A stretch of DNA of 64,000 nt from Patescibacteria group bacterium (GCA_035291665.1 DATDRP010000006.1:145255-209254), one strand, 5' to 3'; counted from the stretch's first letter, positions 655-60,655 are shown. Translations and numbers: made by a program. The notes: generated by a model from the letters alone, not told the origin.

Positions 655-660
655 AATATC

Positions 661-778
661 AGTACAAAGAGAATAGTGAAAAGAAATAAGCAATAAAAAT
701 AGGCAATAAGTTGTGGGATGTGAGTAGTGGGAATTGAGTCTTAAGTATTAAGTTTTAAGTAGTTAGTATTGATATATT
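661..778 (-). repeat. Intergenic mosaic element, inverted copy (C-depleted on + strand)
   Basis: Only 4 C in 118 nt (665, 691, 704, 740). 713-733 is the exact reverse complement of 53106-53126 (21-mer TTCCCACTACTCACATCCCAC). Confidence 0.8.
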
Positions 779-874
779 CCTAATAACTTAATATCGAGTC
801 TCTTATATCCTGCAATCACTTTTTACCATATCCTTGACATTTTTTATTTAATGTATTATCTTTTTGCTCAAGGT

Positions 875-3229: not shown

Positions 3230-3746
3230 GCTTTGGAGAAGGAGTGATCGCCACGTTCAGTTAACATGAACGTGGAGGAAAGTCCAGGCAGCAGTAAGAA
3301 GGGAACGGAGCGTAAGCTCCGACTGGAAGCCAGCTTAGCTGGTGAACAGCTGGTGTCTTTGGTTTGTGAAAATAAACTAAGAACCGAATCTGAATTGACA
3401 GATTTGGAGAGTCACAGAGACGATCCTTCGGTTAAACTTGAGGAATTACGACATTAATCAGCAAGTAACTTTGCGATAGATGACTAATCCTTAGGCACAT
3501 TGAAGGGGTGAAACGCTGATAATCCCACCCGCTGCAACCTCCGACTATCCCACCCTTTTTATTTTTTATAAAGTAAAAAGACAAAGCAGCTTACCTGAAA
3601 TTTATTAGGAATGATAGAAATATCAATTCAATAAAGGCGGGATGAAGCTTGAGGGCAGTCCTGATTAATTCGGGACAACTCCGATTTAATCGGAGTTAGA
3701 CAGATGATCACTTAGAAACAGAACCTGGCTTACTATTCTCCAAAGC
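3230..3746 (+). ncRNA. rnpB: RNase P RNA (bacterial type), unusually long
   Basis: Conserved GGAGGAAAGTCCAGGC (about 3274-3289), GGGGTGAAACGCTG (about 3505) and ACAGAACCTGGCTTAC (3717-3732). The P1 helix pairs CTTTGGAGAA (3231-3240) with TTCTCCAAAG (3736-3745). Confidence 0.88.
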
Positions 3747-3752
3747 CTTAAG

Positions 3753-3780
3753 AAACCCACAAGTATTTGTGGGTTTTTTC
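3753..3780 (+). terminator. Rho-independent terminator after rnpB
   Basis: AAACCCAC - loop - GTGGGTTT stem followed by a T-run. Confidence 0.7.
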
Positions 3781-3821
3781 ATGAATAATGAATAGCAAAG
3801 TTTTCACCGAAGGAGGGGTTT

Positions 3822-3843
3822 TTACTATTCTCCAAAGCCTTAA
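3822..3843 (+). repeat. Duplicate of the rnpB 3' end (copy of 3730-3751)
   Basis: Exact 22-mer TTACTATTCTCCAAAGCCTTAA occurs at 3730-3751 and 3822-3843. Both copies are followed by AAACCC and a hairpin. Confidence 0.85.
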
Positions 3844-3870
3844 AAAACCCCGATGGAGTCGGGGTTTTTT
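3844..3870 (+). terminator. Second Rho-independent terminator
   Basis: CCCCGA - TGGAG - TCGGGG stem-loop followed by TTTTTT. Confidence 0.6.
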
Positions 3871-3900
3871 AGTTGCAAGGAAGGATGTTAAAATTAAGTT

Positions 3901-11297: not shown

Positions 11298-11427
11298 GGG
11301 CAGGTACATTGATATAAAGTATAGCATTTGGCATAATGGTAGAAAGAAGATGCTCAAAACTATTGTTTTGGACGTTTTGGTTTGGTTAGAAAAAATATAA
11401 TTAGGTAGTATGGTTATTTTCAAATTT

Positions 11428-11453
11428 CTTAATATCTTAGTATCTTAATATCT
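11428..11453 (+). repeat. CTTAATATC-type 26-nt repeat (partner at 1161-1186)
   Basis: CTTAATATCTTAGTATCTTAATATCT lies in the divergent intergenic region of the pilus locus. Confidence 0.65.
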
Positions 11454-11468
11454 AATGCAAGTCCTGCC

Positions 11469-32566: not shown

Positions 32567-33901
32567 ATGTTTAAAACTCCTCTTCCTAAAGTGTTGCTGA
32601 TAATATTTCTGACCGTTTTTTCAATATATATTAATCTTCCCGGAAGCTTCACGCTTGATTTAACCCGTTACAAAATAAATTTCAATAAAACGCTTTCGAA
32701 ACCTGATCTAAAAATTGGAAGATTCAATTTGGGGAAAAAGAACGAGCTTATTTTGGGACTCGATCTTCAAGGGGGAAGCCGCTTGGTATTTGAAGCCGAT
32801 ACGGTAAATATAGACAGTTCTGTTTCCGGTGATGCATTGACCGGAACGAAAGATATTATAGAGAAACGGGTAAACCTTTTCGGGGTATCCGAACCCAATG
32901 TTCAGCTTTCCGAATTCGAAGGTAAAAAAAGGATTGTTGTTGAGCTTCCTGGGATAAAAGACATTAAGGAAGCAATAAAAATAATCGGGACTACTGCCCA
33001 GCTTAATTTTGCCGAAGTGAGCGAAGAAGAAGATAAAGGTTTGATTCCGACTGATCTAACCGGAGCGGATCTTGTAAAATCCCAAGTACAATTCGATCAA
33101 AAAACTTCAAAACCGGTTGTCGCCATAGAATTTAATGAAGCGGGCGGCAGTAAGTTTGAAAAATTGACGGAAAAAAATATCGGAAAGCCATTAGTAATCC
33201 TTCTGGATAATAATATTATTTCATATCCCACGGTGCAGGATAAAATTTCGGGCGGATCGGCAGTTATTACCGGAGATTTTACTTTGGACGAGGCAAAAAA
33301 TCTTGCAATTCAGCTTAATGCAGGAGCATTGCCCGTTCCGATCACTTTGGTTGAGCAAAGGACTGTCGGAGCGGCATTAGGTACCGAATCAGTACAAAAA
33401 TCTGTGAATGCGGGAGTAGTCGGCTTAGTTATGGTTATGCTCTTTATGATTCTTTCATATGGACGGATGGGTTTTGTTGCCGATTTAGCGCTCCTCATAT
33501 TCGGAACCATTACACTATCCTTGTATAAATTGATTCCCGTAGTTTTAACTCTTCCGGGAATTGCCGGATTTTTACTTTCGGTTGGTATGGCAGTTGATTC
33601 AAATATTTTGATATTTGAAAGGTTTAAAGAGGAAATAATTAAACGACCTTTTACAGATGCTCTTGAAATATCATTTGGGAAAGCATGGGATTCCATACGT
33701 GACGCCAACATTGCAACCCTGTCAACAGCTTTTATTTTGGCAAATCCTTTTGAATGGAATTTTCTACACACTTCCGGTCCGGTACGCGGTTTTGCTATCA
33801 CACTTGCTTTGGGGATTCTGATCAGTTTATTTACAGGCATTGTCGTTACGAGAAATTTACTAAGGGTTCTGATTCGAAAGAGTGGAAGAGTAAAAGAGTA
33901 G
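32567..33901 (+). CDS. secD: Protein translocase subunit SecD
   Basis: LGLDLQGG, periplasmic domain, and a C-terminal 6-TM block with DSNILIFERFKEE. Confidence 0.9.
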   Translation: MFKTPLPKVLLIIFLTVFSIYINLPGSFTLDLTRYKINFNKTLSKPDLKIGRFNLGKKNELILGLDLQGGSRLVFEADTVNIDSSVSGDALTGTKDIIEKRVNLFGVSEPNVQLSEFEGKKRIVVELPGIKDIKEAIKIIGTTAQLNFAEVSEEEDKGLIPTDLTGADLVKSQVQFDQKTSKPVVAIEFNEAGGSKFEKLTEKNIGKPLVILLDNNIISYPTVQDKISGGSAVITGDFTLDEAKNLAIQLNAGALPVPITLVEQRTVGAALGTESVQKSVNAGVVGLVMVMLFMILSYGRMGFVADLALLIFGTITLSLYKLIPVVLTLPGIAGFLLSVGMAVDSNILIFERFKEEIIKRPFTDALEISFGKAWDSIRDANIATLSTAFILANPFEWNFLHTSGPVRGFAITLALGILISLFTGIVVTRNLLRVLIRKSGRVKE

Positions 33902-33963
33902 AAGAGCTTGAGTATTTTTTTTACTTATACACTTGAACTCTCCTGCTCTTATACACTAATCAT

Positions 33964-35216: not shown

Positions 35217-36644
35217 TTACTTCAGTTTTAAAAGAGCTTCGATGAGCTCATCCGGGTTATTTTTGATTTCTTTAGCAACAACCAAGTCAAATAGCTTTTT
35301 TAAAGCTTCACCGACTTTGGGTCCGGGTTTGAGATTGAGTTTTTTCATAACGGTAACTCCGTTAATCTTCAGATCAGTAACTTTGAATGGCTGCTTTTGA
35401 ACAAGTTTTATCTTCCGTTTGAAATCCTCCAATCTCCAGGAGGTTTCACTAGCACCACCACCGAGTCTGTCAGCAGTTCTTAACGCGAGCATATCGGAGA
35501 CGTTTTCCAGACCAACGTTAGTAATAAACCTTCTCACCGCAGTATCTGTTTGATTTTCGTTGACGCTAAATTGGTGCCAGCGGACAAGTTTTTCCAGTTT
35601 TTCGGACTGTTTTTTTGAAAGCTTAATCCTTTTTGCCAACTTCTTGGCAATATATGTACTTACAACTTCATGATTGTAGAAAGTTATTATCCCGCTGTTC
35701 AATTTTTTATAGGTTGATACTTTTCCCAAATCATGAATTAGTATTGCCAGTTTTGTCACGGGGTCTTCGGTTGGTGCAAATTTCAATGACATAAGAGAGT
35801 GTGTCCCGACGTCGTACACATGGTGTCTCCGGGGAGATTTTTGCTGGATATCGAATGCTTTTTCAAATTCGGGAATAATCTGTTCCATAAGTTTGGTTTT
35901 TTGAAGTAACATTACTCCTTCGTGTGCGTACGGAGACTTCATAATTTTCAGAAGTTCATCTCTCACCCTCTCAGCTGTGATTTTTCGGATCGAGTCAGAA
36001 AGTTCCTTAATCGCAAATAAGGTGTGCTCTTCAATTTGGAAACGGATTTCAGTTGCAATTCTAACCGCACGCATCATCCGAAGGGAATCTTCAGTAAAAC
36101 GTTCGACCGGATTTCCTACTGCCCTAATGAGTTTATTTTCGAGATCTTTTTGACCATCGTAAAGATCAATTAGAGTAAAAGTGCGGGAGAGTGCAAGAGC
36201 CTGAGCAGTTTTTTTCTTATACTCTTTTACTCTTTTACTCTCCTGCTCTATTTTCAACGCCATTGCGTTAATGGTGAAGTCGCGTCTTTTGAGGTCGTCA
36301 GTAAGTGTTTTTCCCCACAAGACTTTGTCTGGTCTTCGCGAATCGCTATAACCGTGTTCAGTTCTGAAAGTCGTAATTTCGTAAGGTCTTTCTCCTTCAA
36401 TTTCGTTTGGGATGCCGACGGTTCCGAATTTGTTATCGTAATAAGCATTTTCAAAAAGAGTAAGGATTTGTTCGGGTACAGCATTAGTTGTGAAATCCCA
36501 ATCATAGACAATTTTTCCCATTAAAATGTCCCTTATAGCCCCGCCTACAATATAAATTTCAAAATCTTTTTTTTCAAAAGCGGATATAATTTTTGCTACC
36601 TGACCGGGAACATCAACTTTCATATTATTTGTAGTAAGCATCAA
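35217..36644 (-). CDS. cca: CCA-adding tRNA nucleotidyltransferase with HD domain
   Basis: IVGGAIRD, RDFTINAMA, and the HD motif LAILIHDLGK. Confidence 0.88.
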   Translation of the reverse strand: MMLTTNNMKVDVPGQVAKIISAFEKKDFEIYIVGGAIRDILMGKIVYDWDFTTNAVPEQILTLFENAYYDNKFGTVGIPNEIEGERPYEITTFRTEHGYSDSRRPDKVLWGKTLTDDLKRRDFTINAMALKIEQESKRVKEYKKKTAQALALSRTFTLIDLYDGQKDLENKLIRAVGNPVERFTEDSLRMMRAVRIATEIRFQIEEHTLFAIKELSDSIRKITAERVRDELLKIMKSPYAHEGVMLLQKTKLMEQIIPEFEKAFDIQQKSPRRHHVYDVGTHSLMSLKFAPTEDPVTKLAILIHDLGKVSTYKKLNSGIITFYNHEVVSTYIAKKLAKRIKLSKKQSEKLEKLVRWHQFSVNENQTDTAVRRFITNVGLENVSDMLALRTADRLGGGASETSWRLEDFKRKIKLVQKQPFKVTDLKINGVTVMKKLNLKPGPKVGEALKKLFDLVVAKEIKNNPDELIEALLKLK

Positions 36645-50874: not shown

Positions 50875-51258
50875 ATGCAAACAGGATCTGAACTTTGTAA
50901 AATATGCCCTATTAATGAGAGCTGCAGTTCAGATCTTAACCCTGAAAGTGCAACAAAAAGGAGGCTTGTCATTAATAATCCCTGGAACTGCCGGCATCTG
51001 ACGTGTCCTGCAGGCGTTGAAGAAGCCAAAAAGGAAAAGTCGCGTTTAAGATCTAAAAATATATTTTTTGGTTATGCCTACTTTTCGTCAAAGGACAAAC
51101 CAAGTGTCAGAAGATTTGATATGAAGTTGGGTATTATCGAATCATTTCAGGATGGACAGTGGCATTCAACAGGTCAGTCAATCTATAAAAATTATATTGT
51201 TGATAGAAAAAACTATCCATATAAAAGAATCAGGAATTTCAGTGTGAAGAAAACTTAA
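50875..51258 (+). CDS. Hypothetical Cys-containing basic protein
   Basis: 127-aa ORF. N-terminal CKIC...C...C..C cysteines. No family. Confidence 0.45.
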   Translation: MQTGSELCKICPINESCSSDLNPESATKRRLVINNPWNCRHLTCPAGVEEAKKEKSRLRSKNIFFGYAYFSSKDKPSVRRFDMKLGIIESFQDGQWHSTGQSIYKNYIVDRKNYPYKRIRNFSVKKT

Positions 51259-51323
51259 AACTAAATACCCACTTCCCACAACTCATTTCCTATTTCTTTC
51301 CCCTTTTCTCTATTAGCTAATTT
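51259..51323 (+). repeat. G-depleted intergenic mosaic element (short copy)
   Basis: 1 G in 65 nt. 51278-51314 matches 59601-59637 at 33 of 37 positions. Confidence 0.8.
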
Positions 51324-53065: not shown

Positions 53066-53200
53066 AAAAACTTAACTCCAAATAACTTAATTTCTATTTT
53101 TCCCTTTCCCACTACTCACATCCCACTTCCCATCACCTACCCCCTACAACCTATCTCCTACCGCTTACAATCCACTTTTTATCTCCATTCATCTATATTT
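53066..53200 (+). repeat. G-depleted intergenic mosaic element
   Basis: 1 G (53163) in 135 nt. Contains the 21-mer 53106-53126 shared, inverted, with 713-733. Confidence 0.85.
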
Positions 53201-53205
53201 GTAGC

Positions 53206-53243
53206 TTTCGGATGGCGTACAATACCAGCATTATGCAGGAAAA
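53206..53243 (+). promoter_or_regulatory. 38-bp conserved 5' module, copy 1 (contains TACAAT 53218-53223 and ATG 53233)
   Basis: Identical to 53517-53554 at 34 of 38 positions. Confidence 0.6.
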
Positions 53244-53526
53244 TGAAAAACCATCAATTTGTCAACGGAACTTTATGCTGGATTGCAAGCCCGGCTGTCC
53301 TCTTTATGCTTATTCCAAGAATTCCGTTCAAACTTTGGCGGATCAACACGGAGTGACTTTTGATGAAGCAATAAAAAAGATCCGAAGTATGCGCTTTGAT
53401 CAACAAGTGCAGATTCTGGCTTTAATAAAGGGTGGTTTACAATCCGTAAAAGAGAAGAGGGGGATTGTTTTGGAATGCGATAATGAGAAAAATGGGTTAA
53501 TTTCGGACCATTTTGGTTTCGGATAG
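53233..53526 (+). CDS. Hypothetical small protein (97 aa from ATG 53233, or 104 aa from 53212)
   Basis: ORF with CQRNFMLDCKPGC. The start is chosen by analogy with the duplicated module. No family. Confidence 0.45.
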   Translation: MQENEKPSICQRNFMLDCKPGCPLYAYSKNSVQTLADQHGVTFDEAIKKIRSMRFDQQVQILALIKGGLQSVKEKRGIVLECDNEKNGLISDHFGFG

Positions 53527-53554
53527 CGTACAATACCATCATCATGCCGGAAAA
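53517..53554 (+). promoter_or_regulatory. 38-bp conserved 5' module, copy 2 (TACAAT 53529-53534, ATG 53544)
   Basis: Same TACAAT-to-ATG spacing as copy 1. Overlaps the stop codon of the upstream ORF. Confidence 0.6.
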
Positions 53555-53786
53555 GTGGTTTCGAAGGGTAGAAAATTTGGCAATTATTCCAGTAATAGGT
53601 GGTGATTTACCGGGTATGTATAGGGAGTTTCCACCTGAACTTCATGATGCTTTTGAGGAAGGTAAAAAAGCACTGGTTCCCGGTGAACAGTCTTATATAT
53701 CTATGAGGGGTCCTGTAAAGTATGGTGGTTTTGAAAGCAAAGTATTCATCGTTTCGAAGATCACTCTCGTAAAAGTTGCAGGGTGA
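53544..53786 (+). CDS. Hypothetical small protein (80 aa)
   Basis: ORF immediately after module copy 2. No family, and no similarity to the neighbouring small ORF. Confidence 0.45.
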   Translation: MPEKWFRRVENLAIIPVIGGDLPGMYREFPPELHDAFEEGKKALVPGEQSYISMRGPVKYGGFESKVFIVSKITLVKVAG

Positions 53787-53787
53787 G

Positions 53788-54029
53788 AAACTACTAAAAA
53801 CTTAAAACTGAATACTAAATACTCACAACTCACTTCCCACATCTCACTTCCCATTTCTTTTCGCTTTTCTCTATTCTCTTAATTCCTTAATTCCTATATT
53901 CCTAATTTCTTATCTTCATTTCCCACAACTCACTTCTCACTACTCATTTCCTACTTCCTACCTCCTACAACCTATAACCATTGCCCCTCTCATTTCTCAC
54001 ATCCCACATCCCATCTCTTACAACCTACC
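53788..54029 (+). repeat. G-depleted intergenic mosaic element (long copy)
   Basis: 3 G (53810, 53863, 53983) in 242 nt. 53849-53906 matches 59611-59668 at 54 of 58 positions. Confidence 0.9.
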
Positions 54030-54056
54030 GATCAGTGTTAATATACCAATATAAGT

Positions 54057-55166: not shown

Positions 55167-58100
55167 TTGAGAATGCGGACGTTTTCAAGAAAGCTATCAT
55201 ATCTTCTTTGTTTTACTCTTCTTTTTTACCAACTCTCCCTTTTTTTATTCAACGATGCAAAAACCGCACAAGCAACTACGGCATCATATCAAGTGTCAAC
55301 TTCTACTGATGATGTAAACGAAGACGGCGGGACAATGAATTCAACAAGTACCAGTATTTGGGTGGGAACGGGCGGATCCACAAGCCAAAGTTACACCGGT
55401 TTCCGATTTACCAACGTAAGTATTCCCCAAGGATCAACTATTACATCTGCTTATATAGAGCTTTGGTCTATCCAAGATTCATGGATTGATACCGGTTATC
55501 AAATCGGGGCAGAAAATGTCGGCAATAGTACAACTTTCACAAGTACAACAAAGCCGTCACAACGGGCTCTGACAACCGCCGTGGTCAACTATTCATCAAG
55601 CTCCCATTGGTTAATCAACACTTGGTATCAGGATGCAAACATACCCTCAGTTATTCAGGAAGTTGTTAACCGTACTGATTGGACAAGCGGTAATGCGTTG
55701 TCGATTATTTACAAGGGAACTTCCGCAGCATGGGGTAGAAAGTATGCATCAAGCTATAACGGGAACCCATCCTATGCTCCGCGTTTAGTTGTTGCATTTG
55801 AAGCCGCAACCACGCCTAGTCCGACGCCGCCGCCGACGCCCACTCCCACTGAAACTCCGACTCCTACACCAACAGAAACACCAACTCCTACTCCTACCGA
55901 ATCTCTAACTCCGACTCCCACGGAAATCCCCACTCCCACTCCGACCGAGACGCCAACGCCAATGCCTACCCCAACAGCCTCGGTTACCCCGACACCTCAG
56001 CCACCTTCGGAATGGACGCAGCTCGGACATGACGCACAGCATTCATCGTACACGGAACAATTTGTCCCAACCCCATGGAAGTGGAAATGGTCATGGAACG
56101 GACCCGACGCAGCAGGAAATGTACGTGCGGATAAACTGAATTATCCCGGAAGCAGTGATTTTACAACTCCGGGTATCCCTCGGAATATTCAACCGGTGAC
56201 CGGTGGGGGTAAAGTATATATTGCTGCCGGAAATTTCGGTGTTTACGCCCTTAATGAGGAAGACGTAAATACTGACAGTTTTGCAGATGTTTTGTGGAAC
56301 GTAAATCCGGTTGCTGGTGGTGGAGTTAAGTCAACTCCCGCATACGATAGCGAAACTGGAGCATTATTTGTTCTTGGAACAAATGGCGTTGTTTACAAAT
56401 TGGATACCCTTAACAGCGGGATCGTGATTGGAGAATTTAATACAAATCAAAGTTATGCACCATATACAACAAGTGCTGACCGATACAATCGGGTAGCGTT
56501 GCCGACATCCCCCACACTTTCGGGAAACCGGTTATTTGTATCGATGGGACAGAAAGTTTTTGCACTGGACAAAAACAATCTTAGTAATCTTATATGGGAG
56601 TACGATGCGGGAGCAGAAGTTTATACACCGCCTGCATACTCAACTGTCAGGGATATGGTCTTTGTTGCATCTCAGGATTTGACACCCGGTCCGGATGGAA
56701 AACTTCATATTTATACGCATGCAATATCAAATTCTAATGGACTGGAATTGTGGAAGACTAGCATCACTAATATCACCGGTGTTGAAGCGGGAGACCCCAA
56801 CCCGCCTCCAAATTACACCAGCCAGGTAAGAGCGGAAGTACTTAACGGTTGGCCGGTTATTGCTGAAGAACATGGTCTGGTTTTTATCAAATTAAGACTT
56901 AATTGGAATACGATGTGGACTTGGAGTCCCTGGTCAACGAGCAATGAGACGAACCGGACGAGGCTTCTTTCCAATCCAACACAACAAGCTCTGATTGCTC
57001 TTTCAATGGATAGCGGGAGCCAACCGTTTGTTGTCAATATCGGTCACGGAGGCTATGGAGATGGATTCATCCCGATGGGACCCCAACCGGTTGTAAAGAG
57101 GTTTGCCGATGGGAGTGAAGTTGTCTATACGATGGTAAGGGGAGACAGTCAATCCGGTGTTGACGGTCGTTCGGATACCCACTTTGGGGAGTTGGTTTTG
57201 GATTCAACAACAGCAACCGGATTTGAACCGGGCTATGTCAGATGGATTGAATACGGTAATTATGGTTGGCCGGCAAATTCAAATAATGATACTCCGCCGA
57301 CAGATGAGCAGCCGAATGTATCAATGTCAGGAAACTATCTTTTCGGAGGCCACTGGGCTGTTGGGAATGCGATGGAAATCGTTGATAGGAATGCAAATTT
57401 GGGAGGCTATTCAAACCCCATCACAACAGAACCGATTCCGAATATCGCTTTAATGACAAATTCGTCAACTGTTCCGGAAGGATTTGACTCTTCACACTAT
57501 GTTTCACACAATTTTGGCATGGCAACGAATGGGGAATGGAGGGCGTTGCCTCCCGGATTTTACGTATATTGGAATCAAGGGCATCTTTATGATCAATACT
57601 GGAGCGACTACTCTACCTGGACAGTTAGTAATAATACCGTTTACTATTTGACGAATGATGGTGCACTTGTTGCTTTAGATCACAATAGTGGCAGTCCTAC
57701 ACCTACACCAACACCCAGTCCAACTGCCACGCCTACTCCCACTGAAACTCCGACTCCGATACCGACCGAGATACCAACACCTACGCCAACTGAGATTCCT
57801 ACCCCGACACCGACTGACATTCCGGCTCCGACTCCAACAGAAATACCTACTCCGACACCTACGGATTCTCCCACTCCAACGCCGACTGATACGCCCACTC
57901 CCACGGACACACCCACTCCGACACCTCCGCTAGTGATTAATATGGCTGTCATGAGCGACAGCTCTTCTGATGAGTATCGTGCAGACGACAATCGTGCCGG
58001 AGGAACTCAATGGGAGTTAACAACGCTGGCCTGGACCGAGTTATTGGAAAAATATCGCGGATTTAATTTGGGGTCTTGGGGAACGCGTGGGGAGCCAAGA

Positions 58101-59597
58101 CGGACCGGTTATGAATACAATTGGGCAAGGACAGGTGCCGAAGCAGCAGATGTAGTTTTTGCCGGCCAACATACAGGCGTTGCTTCCCAGGCACAGTCGG
58201 GTTTAGTCAATATTGTTTATTTCCAGATAGGAAACAACGATTTTGCATATTACCGAGACGGTGCAGATATATATAACGGTGCTCTTTCAGGACAGGCTTT
58301 AACCGATAAAATTAATGCAATAATTTCAAATATCTCAACTTCTCTCGATACTGTTTTGGATGCAGATCCAAACGTAAAGGTAATTCTTGGAAATATTGCA
58401 GATCCTGGACTATCACCTTATTGGGCAGCACAATTCCCTGATCCGGTAAAAAGGCAGTTGGTTACCGATGCAATAAACCAAACTAATGCGGGTATAACAA
58501 ACCTGCTTCTTACCCGGAGCAGAGTTACTTTATTTGATCAAATGGCTTTTGCAAACGAGCTTATGTCTAAGGTTGTTAATGGTAATTTGGTGATAGGCGG
58601 AGAAAATATCAGCTTAACTCAAAATGGCGATGAACCCCACCATGCAATTTTGGGAGATAATATCCATGGCGGGACAGTAATGGAAGGCTTAGTTGCCAAC
58701 GGTTTGATTCCTCTGGTAAATCAGACAACCGGATCGCAGATTCAATTATTTTCTGAAACCGAAATTTTGAATAATTCTGGTATCTTTCCCAGTCCGACTC
58801 CGACTCCCACGGTGATTCCTACTCCGACACCTACTCCGGTGTTTGAAACTCACTATATATCGGTAAATCCGGACGGAGTTATCGGAGGGGTAGCTGTTGC
58901 CGGAGAAGATATTCTCAAATTCAATACCGTAACTGGTTTGTATGAAACATACTTCGACGGTTCGGATGTTGAGCTTTCGGGAACATCGATTGATGCGTTT
59001 ACCTTTCTTCCCGGAGGCGACATGATTCTGTCTTTTTCCGGAAGCGTTTCAATAACTGGGTTGGGGACAGTCGCTTCGCAGGACTTGGTCAGGTTTACTC
59101 CGCTTTCGACAGGTAATAGTACAAGCGGATCTTTTAGTTTATATTTTGACGGATCAGATGTTGCCTTAAGCAATTCGTCGGAAAATATAGATTCAGTATC
59201 GGTTTTGGAAAATGGGGATATTCTCTTATCAACAAATGGCAGTATTTCCGTAACCGGAGTTTCAGCAAACGATGAAGATATTATCGAATTTACTCCGACT
59301 TCACTCGGTCCGGCAACTTCGGGAAGCTGGTCACTTTATTTTGATGCATCTGATGTTGGATTATCAAGTACGAGCGAAGATATCGATGCTTTGAGTATCG
59401 CGTCATCGGGAGATTTTTATCTTTCAACAAGCGGCAGCTTCAGTGTTACGGGTGTCTCCGGTCAAAATAATGATGTCTTTATCTTTGATCCGTTAACTTT
59501 GGGAGGGGATTCGTCAGGAACTTTTTCCCAGCCGATTTATTTGGACGGAAGCGCTTTCGGATTATCGGGTTTCAACGTTACGGGATACTACAAATAA
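55167..59597 (+). CDS. 1476-aa secreted multidomain protein: unassigned N-domain, PT linker, PQQ-like beta-propeller, PT linker, SGNH/GDSL-like hydrolase, PT linker, four novel ~64-aa repeats
   Basis: Signal/TM at the N-terminus (start TTG 55167 or ATG 55173). Propeller-type repeats ([62 protein letters not shown]). SGNH blocks ([22 protein letters not shown]). Confidence 0.85.
55811..56005 (+). repeat. Coding Pro/Thr linker 1 (degenerate TPTPTE codon repeats)
   Basis: [56 protein letters not shown]... Confidence 0.85.
57694..57930 (+). repeat. Coding Pro/Thr linker 2 (degenerate TPTPTE/D codon repeats)
   Basis: [79 protein letters not shown]. Confidence 0.85.
58878..59594 (+). repeat. Four tandem ~64-aa protein repeats at the C-terminus of the 1476-aa protein
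   Basis: Units begin near 58878, 59073, 59265 and 59460. Consensus: [ED]D[IL]..F.P...[22 protein letters not shown]....GD..LST.GS.SVTGVS. Confidence 0.75.
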
Positions 59598-59825
59598 CTT
59601 ACAACTCATTTCCCATTTATTTTCCCTTTTCTCTAGTCTCTTAGTTCCTTAATTCCTATATTCCTAATATCCTACCCCCTATCTCTAATAACCAATTATC
59701 AAATTCCAAATACCAAACAATAAATTTCTAATATCTAATTTCCAATAAATTTTCTCTTAGTTCCTTAATTCCTTTATTCCTGATATCCTACCTCCTATAA
59801 CCTGCAACCTATAACCATTATACCC
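59598..59825 (+). repeat. G-depleted intergenic mosaic element (long copy with internal 46-nt duplication)
   Basis: 5 G in 228 nt. 59637-59682 and 59753-59798 are identical at 43 of 46 positions. Colinear with 53849-53906 and 53957-53982. Confidence 0.9.
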
Positions 59826-60551: not shown

Positions 60552-60655
60552 AAAAAAAGTTCCCGAACGGGAACTATAGTGTGTATATTACCACATTATA
60601 GGTCTTTTTTCAACCTAACTGATGAAAATATGTTTATTTTTTGATAGTCTGAAAT

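What the first reader, a model, noticed from the sequence alone, without database searches (positions are those of the whole stretch)
59598..59825. Second long G-less element, colinear with the 53.8-kb copy and carrying an internal 46-nt duplication
The 228 nt between the convergent 1476-aa gene and the VanW-like gene contain 5 G (59636, 59644, 59760, 59782, 59804). 59611-59668 matches 53849-53906 at 54 of 58 positions. 59787-59819 parallels 53957-53982 (CCTACCTCCTAYAACCT ... AACCTATAACCATT). Within the element, 59637-59682 and 59753-59798 are identical at 43 of 46 positions, so a module has been duplicated. The complement carries nine AGGA. It also carries a TATAAT (59822-59817) 3 nt beyond the VanW-like stop, though I see no convincing -35. 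Conserved order between copies points to a real element family rather than compositional drift.
Basis: seen in the sequence. Interest (0 to 1): 0.72.

Follow-up and report, generated by a model that had tools for sequence, protein, structure and literature searches.

The report
G-free heptamer-repeat spacer family
The 228-base spacer is a real copy of a small, genome-specific repeat family in an uncultured Woesebacteria (CPR) genome, but it is built from short runs of degenerate 7- and 8-base tandem repeats that contain no G, a kind of bacterial simple-sequence repeat already known elsewhere, and no function is shown for it.

Summary
The similarity between copies is far above composition-matched chance (z = 24 against dinucleotide shuffles; z = 12-22 against a null that keeps the 7-mer vocabulary).

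The window holds five copies. Four have the G-free strand on + and start at the stop codon of a + gene. One, at 655-790, is inverted.

All five copies show strong 7-nt periodicity. TRF resolves them into adjoining micro-arrays of G-free 7/8-mers such as CACTTCC, TACAACC, TCTTTTC and TTCCTTAA. The "46-nt internal duplication" is a 116-nt tandem duplication of a whole unit.

Neither strand folds better than shuffles. There is no Rfam hit, no promoter by the scan, no inverted repeats and no consistent target duplications.

The family is absent from about 1.5 Mb of related Microgenomates DNA, including the syntenic locus. That locus carries an unrelated heptamer array instead.

The same heptamer skeleton occurs in cyanobacterial-type arrays, and cyanobacteria lack Rho.

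Best reading: compound heptanucleotide SSR arrays of the STRR or "long SSR" type, made by slippage and copied between nearby spacers. The sense transcript would make an ideal Rho-loading (rut-like) tail. That is the leading functional rival, and it is untested.

Interest is low to moderate.

The parts
59598..59825 (+). E5, the flagged element. It is the G-free spacer (5 G in 228 nt) that fills the whole gap between the TAA of the 1476-aa gene and the TGA of the convergent VanW-like gene. It consists of two tandem units with a 116-nt period.
59637..59682 (+). First copy of the 46-nt duplicated block (TCTCTTAG, then TTCCTTAA-type octamers, then ATCCTACCCCCTAT).
   Evidence: 43/46 identical to 59753-59798
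59753..59798 (+). Second copy of the duplicated block, 116 nt downstream of the first.
59691..59717 (+). A-rich heptamer micro-array (ACCAAAT x3.9). It opens the second unit and is analogous to the A-rich 5' module of the other copies.
59794..59816 (+). Heptamer micro-array CCTATAA x3.3. It has one more heptamer than the matching block at 53957-53982.
53787..54056 (+). E4, the longest copy (8 G in 270 nt), lying between the stop of an 80-aa ORF and the MltG/YceG start. TRF splits it into seven adjoining micro-arrays: ACTAAAA, CACAACTCACTTCC, TCTTTTC, ATTCCTTA, CTCACTT, TTCCTAC, CACATCC.
53066..53211 (+). E3, a copy directly after the TAG of the Amidase_2 gene. Its G-free core is about 53066-53190. 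It shares a 21-mer exactly with E1.
51250..51323 (+). E2, a short copy between convergent genes. Its 5' module AAAACTTAA supplies the TAA stop of the 127-aa ORF.
655..790 (-). E1, an inverted and more decayed copy (10 G in the 146-nt stretch 655-800 that was counted). The G-poor strand is the minus strand. It lies between the rny (RNase Y) stop at 654 and the hup promoter at 834.

Best explanation
The element is one locus of a genome-specific family of compound, degenerate heptanucleotide/octanucleotide tandem-repeat arrays. These belong to the class called long simple-sequence repeats, or STRR in cyanobacteria.

Shown:
- Each copy is a chain of short runs (2-5 units) of G-free 7/8-mers.
- Copies share segments of 50-110 nt in the same order.
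- One copy carries a 116-nt tandem duplication and a one-heptamer indel.
- Neither strand has RNA structure, a recognisable promoter, a coding frame or mobile-element termini.
- The sequence is not conserved in related species.

Inferred mechanism:
- G-free 7/8-mers expand by replication slippage.
- Units drift mainly by C<->T changes.
- Whole composite segments are duplicated in tandem and copied between nearby intergenic spacers by recombination, until they fill the spacer from stop codon to stop codon or to the next promoter.
- G-freeness is inherited from the founding units and kept by repeated re-amplification.

The arrays most probably make no specific product. Their main consequence is that read-through transcripts of the upstream + genes end in a G-free, start-codon-free, structure-free, C-rich tail.
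For: - 7-nt periodicity is present in all five copies: autocorrelation z = 4.2-10.4 at lag 7, with harmonics at 14, 21 and 28.
- TRF micro-arrays lie within every copy.
- The window holds 29 arrays of period 7, 8 or 14, against 4.4 +/- 1.6 in composition-preserving block shuffles. Twenty of the 29 lie in the roughly 9% of DNA that is non-coding.
- Colinearity holds beyond a shared 7-mer vocabulary, z = 8-22.
- There is a heptamer indel and a 116-nt tandem duplication.
- MFE of the G-free strand is about 0, and the complement is no better than shuffles.
- Rfam gives nothing in the elements. No promoter-like site is reported at the TATAAT. No inverted repeats lie in the elements. There are no consistent flank duplications.
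- The family is absent from 80 Microgenomates species loci and from the closest relatives.
- The syntenic MltG/VanW spacer of L004 carries an unrelated heptamer array. The neighbouring VanW/YkuD spacer, in contrast, is 85% conserved.
- The same CAC/CAT/TAC heptamer skeleton occurs in G-poor arrays on metagenome contigs that carry the cyanobacterial HIP1 motif.
- Literature: heptamers are the commonest long SSR class in prokaryotes (Mrazek 2007, as summarised in PMC4679880, and PMC4692102).
Against: - G stays rare across copies that differ at 20-30% of aligned positions. Only 24 of 159 mismatches involve G, and A/G mismatches number 8 against 58 for C/T. This hints at a constraint against G rather than pure neutrality, although alignments of low-complexity repeats are unreliable site by site.
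- Four of five copies begin exactly at the stop codon of a co-oriented gene.
- No copy-number polymorphism was seen among independent assemblies. Those assemblies all come from one site.
Confidence: 0.55

Rival explanations
1. The arrays are selected, hairpin-less, factor-dependent terminators or insulators. On the sense transcript they form a long, unstructured, ribosome-free tail that is C-rich and free of G. This tail loads Rho as a rut site and stops read-through into the next or the convergent gene.
For: - The maximum %C-%G in 78-nt windows is 47 (E3), 44 (E4) and 31 (E5). These three are the highest non-coding + strand values in the window; on that strand only the Pro/Thr-repeat coding bubbles (40 and 37) are comparable.
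- C>G bubbles are 166-293 nt long.
- (YC)N9-13 chains reach 9-11 members.
- MFE is about 0.
- E2 and E5 have no start codons on the sense strand, E3 and E4 have only one or two, and none of the four has a Shine-Dalgarno-like motif.
- These values meet the published rut criteria (PMC6407284; PMC6144790).
- Four of five copies start at the stop codon of a co-oriented gene.
- Hairpin-plus-T terminator motifs occur only at shuffle expectation across the window, so another termination route is needed.
Against: - E1 lies in the opposite orientation, behind rny.
- An orientation of 4 of 5 is not significant (one-sided p about 0.19), and E2-E5 form one local cluster.
- Only 5 of about 45 spacers carry the element, and there is no general C>G bias after stop codons in 450 Microgenomates spacers.
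- The same type of G-poor heptamer array is found on contigs with the cyanobacterial HIP1 motif. Cyanobacteria lack Rho (PMC12642595 abstract; PMC11347177).
- Whether this genome encodes Rho could not be checked.
Confidence: 0.2
2. The heptamer arrays are binding platforms for a single-strand nucleic-acid-binding protein with a roughly 7-nt, pyrimidine-preferring footprint, such as a cold-shock-domain protein, ribosomal protein S1 or a KH-domain protein. Such a protein would coat the 3' UTR and tune mRNA stability or translation.
For: - The 7-nt register is strict.
- The strand is unstructured and pyrimidine-rich.
- Csp, S1 and CsrA were proposed as binders for TAACTGA heptamer repeats in Beggiatoaceae (PMC4679880 abstract).
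Against: - No conserved single heptamer exists: the units differ widely (ACTAAAA, TCTTTTC, CACTTCC, TTCCTTAA).
- The sequence is not conserved in relatives.
- One copy is inverted.
- No candidate protein was identified here.
Confidence: 0.08
3. It is a non-autonomous mobile element (MITE, REP or BOX-like) that inserts into intergenic DNA.
For: It is a dispersed family with conserved module order and variable module number, as in modular BOX elements (own knowledge).
Against: - There are no terminal inverted repeats or palindromes.
- There are no consistent target-site duplications.
- Copies fill the whole spacer instead of sitting inside older spacer DNA.
- No transposase is nearby.
Confidence: 0.07
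4. A minus-strand small RNA starts at the TATAAT near 59820 and carries nine AGGA motifs that sponge CsrA-like proteins or 30S subunits.
For: There are nine AGGA on the complement and a TATAAT at 59822-59817.
Against: - There is no -35 and no hit in the promoter scan.
- There is no terminator.
- The complement is no more structured than shuffles, z = 0.21. GGA sponge RNAs present their motifs in hairpin loops (own knowledge).
- There is no Rfam match.
- The AGGA count is a by-product of the 8-nt repeat register.
Confidence: 0.03
5. It is a DNA-level structural or phase-variation element: a G-quadruplex or i-motif former, or a slippage switch controlling the neighbouring cell-envelope genes.
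For: - G-rich heptamer repeats that form G4 are known in Xanthomonas and Nostoc (PMC4692102).
- The neighbouring genes are envelope-related: amidase, MltG, a surface protein, VanW and YkuD.
Against: - No G4 or i-motif pattern with loops of 7 nt or less occurs in any copy, and only E3 has one with loops of 12 nt or less.
- The runs are short and imperfect: 2-5 units at 68-93% matches.
- The sequence is identical in all assemblies.
Confidence: 0.04

Closest known systems
Heptanucleotide long simple-sequence repeats, including cyanobacterial STRR (short tandemly repeated repetitive) sequences
   Same: - Both are head-to-tail 7-nt units lying in intergenic DNA at many loci.
- Both show strand asymmetry: units such as CCCCACT and CCCCATT are also G-free.
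- Both show unit variation dominated by C<->T.
- The skeleton CAC....CAC....CAT....TAC..CCTAC..CC found in E3 and E4 recurs in such arrays on HIP1-bearing contigs.
   Different: - Here each run is short (2-5 units) and degenerate.
- Many different units, including octamers, are chained together.
- Whole composite segments are shared between loci.
- The host is a CPR bacterium (Woesebacteria). I found no report of this class in CPR bacteria in the few library searches run; no search targeted this question directly.
TAACTGA intergenic direct repeats of marine Beggiatoaceae, Cyanobacteria and Bacteroidetes (PMC4679880)
   Same: Both are intergenic heptamer direct repeats, unstructured, and proposed to bind ssRNA-binding proteins.
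   Different: The TAACTGA repeats use one exact unit and sit just upstream of start codons. Here the units are heterogeneous and G-free, and the arrays mostly start at stop codons.
GGGNATC G-quadruplex-forming heptamer repeats of Xanthomonas and Nostoc (PMC4692102)
   Same: Both are heptamer arrays enriched between co-oriented ORFs and near stop codons.
   Different: In those repeats the G-rich strand is the sense strand after the stop codon, and four units form a G4. Here the C-rich strand is the sense strand, and G4 or i-motif patterns are absent.
Rho utilisation (rut) sites of Rho-dependent terminators
   Same: Both are C>G bubbles longer than 78 nt with phased YC dimers and no secondary structure, located after stop codons.
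   Different: Rut sites are not repeat families and have no 7-nt register. Rho dependence, and even the presence of Rho, are untested here, and one copy is inverted.
REP, BOX and MITE intergenic repeat elements
   Same: Both are dispersed, modular and intergenic.
   Different: Those elements are palindromic or structured and often have inverted termini. These elements cannot self-pair (MFE about 0).

Membership tests
Heptanucleotide long SSR / STRR-type arrays | Head-to-tail repetition of a unit of about 7 nt | tested here: met
   Lag-7 autocorrelation z = 4.2-10.4 in all five copies. TRF finds arrays of period 7, 8 or 14. There are 29 such arrays against 4.4 +/- 1.6 in block shuffles.
Heptanucleotide long SSR / STRR-type arrays | Located in non-coding DNA at several dispersed loci | tested here: met
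   All five copies are intergenic. Twenty of the 29 arrays lie in the roughly 9% of DNA that is non-coding.
Heptanucleotide long SSR / STRR-type arrays | Long runs of one (near-)perfect unit | tested here: not met
   Runs are 2-5 units at 68-93% matches, and different units are chained together. This is a compound, degenerate variant.
Heptanucleotide long SSR / STRR-type arrays | Unit-number variation between copies or strains | tested here: inconclusive
   There is a one-heptamer indel between E4 and E5. However, E5, E4, E3, E2 and E1 are 100% identical in all other assemblies, and all of those come from the same site.
Rho-dependent terminator (rut site) | C>G bubble of at least about 78 nt on the non-template strand | tested here: met
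   Bubbles of 166-293 nt, with maximum %C-%G of 31-47 for E3, E4 and E5. Criterion taken from PMC6144790.
Rho-dependent terminator (rut site) | At least four YC dimers spaced by 9-13 nt | tested here: met
   Chains of 9-11 in E3-E5, 4 in E2 and 3 in E1.
Rho-dependent terminator (rut site) | Unstructured RNA | tested here: met
   MFE is 0 to -0.04 kcal/mol for E2-E5.
Rho-dependent terminator (rut site) | Sense orientation downstream of a transcribed gene | tested here: inconclusive
   Four of five copies fit. E1 is antisense to both neighbours. The one-sided p is about 0.19.
Rho-dependent terminator (rut site) | The organism encodes Rho, and 3' ends are Rho-dependent | not testable with these tools
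   Only 64 kb plus flanks of the genome are held. tblastn with E. coli Rho, a sequence written out from memory and not checked against a database, found nothing in the held DNA. No transcript data are available.
MITE / REP / BOX-type elements | Terminal inverted repeats or a palindromic core able to fold | tested here: not met
   No inverted-repeat arms lie within the elements. There is no structure on either strand beyond shuffles.
MITE / REP / BOX-type elements | Target-site duplications at the borders | tested here: not met
   The flanks share only chance matches of 4-6 nt, and the matches differ at every copy. The borders themselves are ill-defined.
CsrB/RsmZ-type GGA sponge sRNA | Own promoter and terminator, with GGA motifs presented in hairpin loops | tested here: not met
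   No promoter-like or terminator-like site is present. The complement has a z-score of 0.21. There is no Rfam hit.
G-quadruplex-forming heptamer repeats | At least four G3 tracts with short loops on the G-rich strand | tested here: not met
   No pattern with loops of 7 nt or less occurs in any copy. Only E3 has one with loops of 12 nt or less.

The most novel reading that the evidence does not exclude
In this CPR genome, hairpin-plus-U terminator motifs are no more frequent than chance. G-free heptamer arrays may have been recruited here as modular, hairpin-less termination or insulation cassettes. They would work by loading Rho, or by being coated by a protein with a 7-nt footprint such as a cold-shock-domain protein. 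They would spread by duplication to the ends of cell-envelope genes. Selection against G, rather than ancestry alone, would then explain why copies that differ at 20-30% of positions stay G-free.
Probability: 0.2. Interest if true: 0.6.

Novelty: new member of a known kind. Interest (0 to 1): 0.3.

Why it matters
- It shows that heptamer simple-sequence arrays also occur, in a compound and dispersed form, in a streamlined CPR genome where non-coding DNA is scarce. This repeat class is known from cyanobacteria, Xanthomonas, Beggiatoaceae and others, and is poorly understood.
- If the arrays turned out to be selected as structure-free, G-free 3' tails, they would give a handle on how transcription ends in CPR bacteria, which is unknown.
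- In practical terms, such arrays break metagenome assemblies and can mimic "elements" in scans based on base composition.

Tried and rejected
**Searches that found nothing useful**
- The exact family pattern TTCCYATTTNTTTYCNCTTTTCTCTA gave 0 hits in genome contigs and in metagenome contigs. The window's own population is not in those collections, although the pattern is present in L001-L003.
- Three family patterns in viral contigs gave 0, 2 and 8 hits. None was a family member: most fall in ordinary sequence with many G (L093 reads as a Shine-Dalgarno plus ATG on the other strand), and L094 is an unrelated heptamer hairpin.
- blastn-short and nhmmer of all five copies against about 1.5 Mb of related and other loci found no significant member outside the same population.
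- A G-free window scan of 80 related loci returned mostly antisense strands of coding DNA.
- There is no general C>G bias downstream of genes in Microgenomates.
- Rfam gave nothing in the elements at gathering or at E <= 1. No tRNA or tmRNA was found.

**Explanations tested and rejected**
- Replication-orientation explanation for the inverted copy: GC skew is positive across the whole window.
- Homology of E5 to the heptamer arrays of L004 and L008: z < 2.
- G4 or i-motif formation.
- Target-site duplications.
- TIGR or CRISPR-like arrays: the period is only 7-8 nt with no spacers, and no Pfam domain of an associated protein turned up in the genes that were scanned or that carry precomputed hits.
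- A coding extension past the stop codon: an in-frame TAG follows 12 codons after the TAA.

**Could not be done**
- Checking for Rho. tblastn of the held DNA found nothing, and the papers searched do not cover CPR.

Full report
**Observation**

- 59598-59825 has 5 G at the listed positions (T 91, A 67, C 65).
- 59611-59668 against 53849-53906 is 54/58, and 59637-59682 against 59753-59798 is 43/46.
- The second colinear block (53957-53982 and 59787-59819) differs by exactly one extra heptamer.
- There are nine TCCT (AGGA on the complement), against 2.9 +/- 1.6 in shuffles.
- TATAAT on the minus strand lies 3 nt from the TGA of the VanW-like gene.

- The local alignment of this element (E5) with the 53.8-kb copy (E4) scores 108, against 24.2 +/- 3.4 (maximum 35) in dinucleotide-preserving shuffles, z = 24.
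- The two halves of E5 score 77, against 20.9 +/- 3.3.
- A stricter null permutes 7-nt or 14-nt blocks, so it keeps the repeat vocabulary. Against it E5-E4 still gives z = 21.7 and 11.9, and the other pairs give z = 5-16.

The family and its colinearity are therefore real.

**Extent of the family and its context**

The window holds five copies.
- E1, 655-790, has its G-poor strand on the minus strand.
- E2 is at 51250-51323.
- E3 is at 53066-53211.
- E4 is at 53787-54056.
- E5 is at 59598-59825.

They are the most C>G-skewed spacers of the window, and of about 450 spacers surveyed in 80 related species.

Where they sit:
- E2-E5 begin at, or within 10 nt of, the stop codon of a + strand gene. 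In E2 the 5' module AAAACTTAA supplies the TAA itself.
- E2 and E5 run to the stop codon of a convergent gene.
- E3 and E4 run to within about 25-30 nt of the next + gene.
- E1 lies between the stop of rny (RNase Y) and the hup promoter (TTGACA at 834), with its G-poor strand antisense to both.

The neighbouring genes are envelope-related: Amidase_2, YceG/MltG, a 1476-aa Pro/Thr-rich protein, VanW and YkuD.

The organism is a CPR bacterium of the Microgenomates, close to Candidatus Woesebacteria. Its MltG is 100% identical to a "Patescibacteria group bacterium" MAG protein on a 606-kb contig, and the next relatives are at 73% or less. The contigs come from Rifle-type JGI samples.

**Anatomy**

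All five copies have a strong 7-nt periodicity. Autocorrelation at lag 7 gives z = 4.2-10.4, with harmonics at 14, 21 and 28.

Tandem Repeats Finder resolves the copies into adjoining micro-arrays.
- E4: ACTAAAA x4.4, CACAACTCACTTCC x2.1, TCTTTTC x3.6, ATTCCTTA x5, CTCACTT x3.1, TTCCTAC x3 and CACATCC x2.3.
- E5: CTTAATTC x3.2, ACCAAAT x3.9, CTTAATTC x3.2 and CCTATAA x3.3.

The window has 29 TRF arrays of period 7, 8 or 14, against 4.4 +/- 1.6 in block shuffles that keep local composition. Twenty of the 29 lie in the roughly 9% of DNA that is non-coding. Related species have only 7.5 per 64 kb, against 4.8 in shuffles.

The copies have a polarity: an A-rich heptamer run, then CAC/CAT-type, T-rich and TTCCTTAA-type units, then TAC/TAT-type heptamers.

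E5 consists of two such units in tandem with a 116-nt period. This explains the "internal 46-nt duplication". The nine AGGA are spaced exactly 8 nt apart and are the register of the octamer repeat.

**What it is not**

- RNA structure: the G-free strand of E5 has an MFE of -0.04 kcal/mol, and all 200 dinucleotide shuffles fold at least as well. The complement has z = 0.21. The other copies behave alike.
- Known RNA families: Rfam gives nothing in the elements at gathering thresholds or at E <= 1. No tRNA or tmRNA was found.
- Promoter or terminator: none is reported at the TATAAT or inside the elements.
- Mobile-element features: no inverted repeats, no consistent flank duplications, and no G4 or i-motif pattern with short loops.
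- Coding: an in-frame TAG follows 12 codons after the TAA.

**Distribution**

- Exact family patterns found nothing in the genome, metagenome or viral collections.
- blastn-short and nhmmer found no member in about 1.5 Mb of related or other DNA. That DNA included 80 Microgenomates species loci and the closest relatives, at 70-72% MltG identity.
- All other assemblies of the same population are 100% identical across the elements, so no unit-number polymorphism was seen. These assemblies share one site.
- The one syntenic relative is L004, with the order MltG, convergent VanW-like gene, divergent YkuD. It has an unrelated heptamer array (GAATTAT/ATTACGA x8) in the convergent spacer.
- In contrast, the adjacent VanW/YkuD spacer is 85% identical between the two species.

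Regulatory spacers are thus conserved between these genomes, whereas heptamer-array spacers turn over.

**Relation to known repeats**

A skeleton pattern taken from E3 and E4 (CACNNNNCACNNNNCATNNNNTACNNCCTACNNCC) matched 28 metagenome contigs. Many of them carry long G-poor heptamer arrays such as CCCCACT, CCCCATT and CCCTACT. Several contain multiple copies of the cyanobacterial HIP1 motif.

Heptamers are reported as the most abundant long SSR class in prokaryotes, with a slippage origin proposed (Mrazek 2007, as summarised in PMC4679880). Three tandem heptanucleotides were described in Calothrix (cited in PMC4692102).

Other described heptamer systems differ in strand, position and unit uniformity. 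They are the TAACTGA repeats upstream of start codons (PMC4679880) and the G4-forming GGGNATC repeats (PMC4692102).

**Mechanism**

The best-supported account is that these are compound, degenerate heptamer/octamer SSR arrays. They would be generated by slippage, diversified mostly by C<->T changes, duplicated segmentally, and copied between nearby spacers. No specific product would be made (confidence 0.55).

The steps shown are the periodic anatomy, the shared composite segments, the tandem duplication and heptamer indel, the lack of structure, promoter or termini, and the lack of conservation. Slippage and recombination as the generating processes are inferred.

One observation is not fully explained by neutrality. 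G stays rare between copies that differ at 20-30% of positions. Only 24 of 159 mismatches involve G, and there are 8 A/G mismatches against 58 C/T. Site-by-site alignment of such repeats is unreliable.

**Leading functional rival (confidence 0.2)**

On + strand read-through transcripts the arrays form G-free, essentially start-codon-free, structure-free, C-rich tails.
- These meet published rut criteria: C>G bubbles of 166-293 nt, (YC)N9-13 chains of 9-11, and MFE about 0 (criteria).
- Hairpin-plus-T terminator motifs occur only at shuffle expectation across the window.

Against this rival:
- E1 is inverted.
- The 4-of-5 orientation is not significant.
- Only five spacers carry the arrays.
- Similar arrays exist in cyanobacteria, which lack Rho.
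- Whether Rho is present in this genome could not be tested.

Minor rivals are heptamer-footprint binding proteins, a MITE-like element, a minus-strand AGGA sponge RNA, and DNA structure or phase variation. They are listed with their evidence in the rival section.

**Verdict**

The finding is real and accurately described, but it is a new member of a known kind of bacterial repeat rather than a new type of element. Interest is 0.3.

The most novel reading not excluded is that G-free heptamer arrays act as hairpin-less termination cassettes in a CPR bacterium. I give it a probability of 0.2 and an interest of 0.6 if true.

Noticed in passing
window 60552-60655 (and L004:11764-11871): The divergent spacer between the VanW-like and YkuD genes is 85% identical between two species whose flanking proteins are only 64-70% identical. 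It contains two palindromes: AGTTCCC-GAAC-GGGAACT at 60558-60575, and CTATAG...CTATAG at 60574-60601. It is probably a conserved operator or leader.
   Followed up: partly
window 3458-3900: A 443-nt non-coding stretch holds two 49-nt direct repeats (3730-3778 and 3822-3870, 82% identical). Each ends in a different GC hairpin plus a T run. Upstream of them lies another hairpin-like, T-tailed segment. There is no Rfam hit. These are possibly tandem small RNA genes or terminators.
   Followed up: no
window 11423-11453: The octamer AATATCTT x3.9 occupies almost the whole 45-nt divergent spacer 11424-11468. Further 8-nt arrays sit at 1161-1186 and 33878-33906 in or at the edge of spacers, and at 36215-36241 inside the 35217-36644 minus-strand ORF.
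   Followed up: no
window 53206-53243 and 53517-53554: A 38-nt direct repeat (89% identical) containing TACAAT precedes each of two paralogous ORFs of about 80 aa (53275-53526 and 53544-53786). Neither ORF has a Pfam match. The pair lies between E3 and E4.
   Followed up: no
window 55788-55987, 57681-57928, 58790-58838: There are 24-nt periodic Pro/Thr-rich coding repeats in the 1476-aa protein. They give the only + strand C>G bubbles comparable to the elements.
   Followed up: no
whole window: Hairpin-plus-T terminator-like motifs occur at the frequency expected from shuffles. Counts against shuffle means were 6 vs 3.0, 17 vs 16.2, 21 vs 18.6 and 24 vs 17.5. Canonical intrinsic terminators therefore do not stand out in this genome.
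   Followed up: partly
L004:10993-11060: Heptamer arrays (GAATTAT and ATTACGA, about 8 units) fill the syntenic convergent spacer between MltG and the VanW-like gene in Woesebacteria RIFCSPLOWO2_01_FULL_39_23. They have no sequence similarity to E5.
   Followed up: partly
L008:10812-10862: A 51-nt G-free spacer (ATATTTTCCTTAAATTCCTTTAAATCCCTCTAATTTCCTC...) lies downstream of a gene in Woesebacteria GW2011_GWB1_39_10. It is similar in style to the TTCCTTAA octamers, but the similarity is not significant.
   Followed up: partly
L082:8-81 and L082:1303-1375: Two G-poor intergenic repeats of about 73 nt occur on a Saccharibacteria contig. They may be another lineage-specific strand-asymmetric repeat.
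   Followed up: no
L009:9881-10000: Three tandem 31-nt repeats (AGCTTGGCCAGATAGAGCCCTGGTAAGCAA...) lie directly upstream of MltG in another Woesebacteria genome.
   Followed up: no
L094:5700-5950: A viral (IMG/VR) contig carries a CCTACAA/CCTACCC heptamer array with an inverted copy just upstream. Unlike the window's arrays, this pair could form a long hairpin.
   Followed up: no
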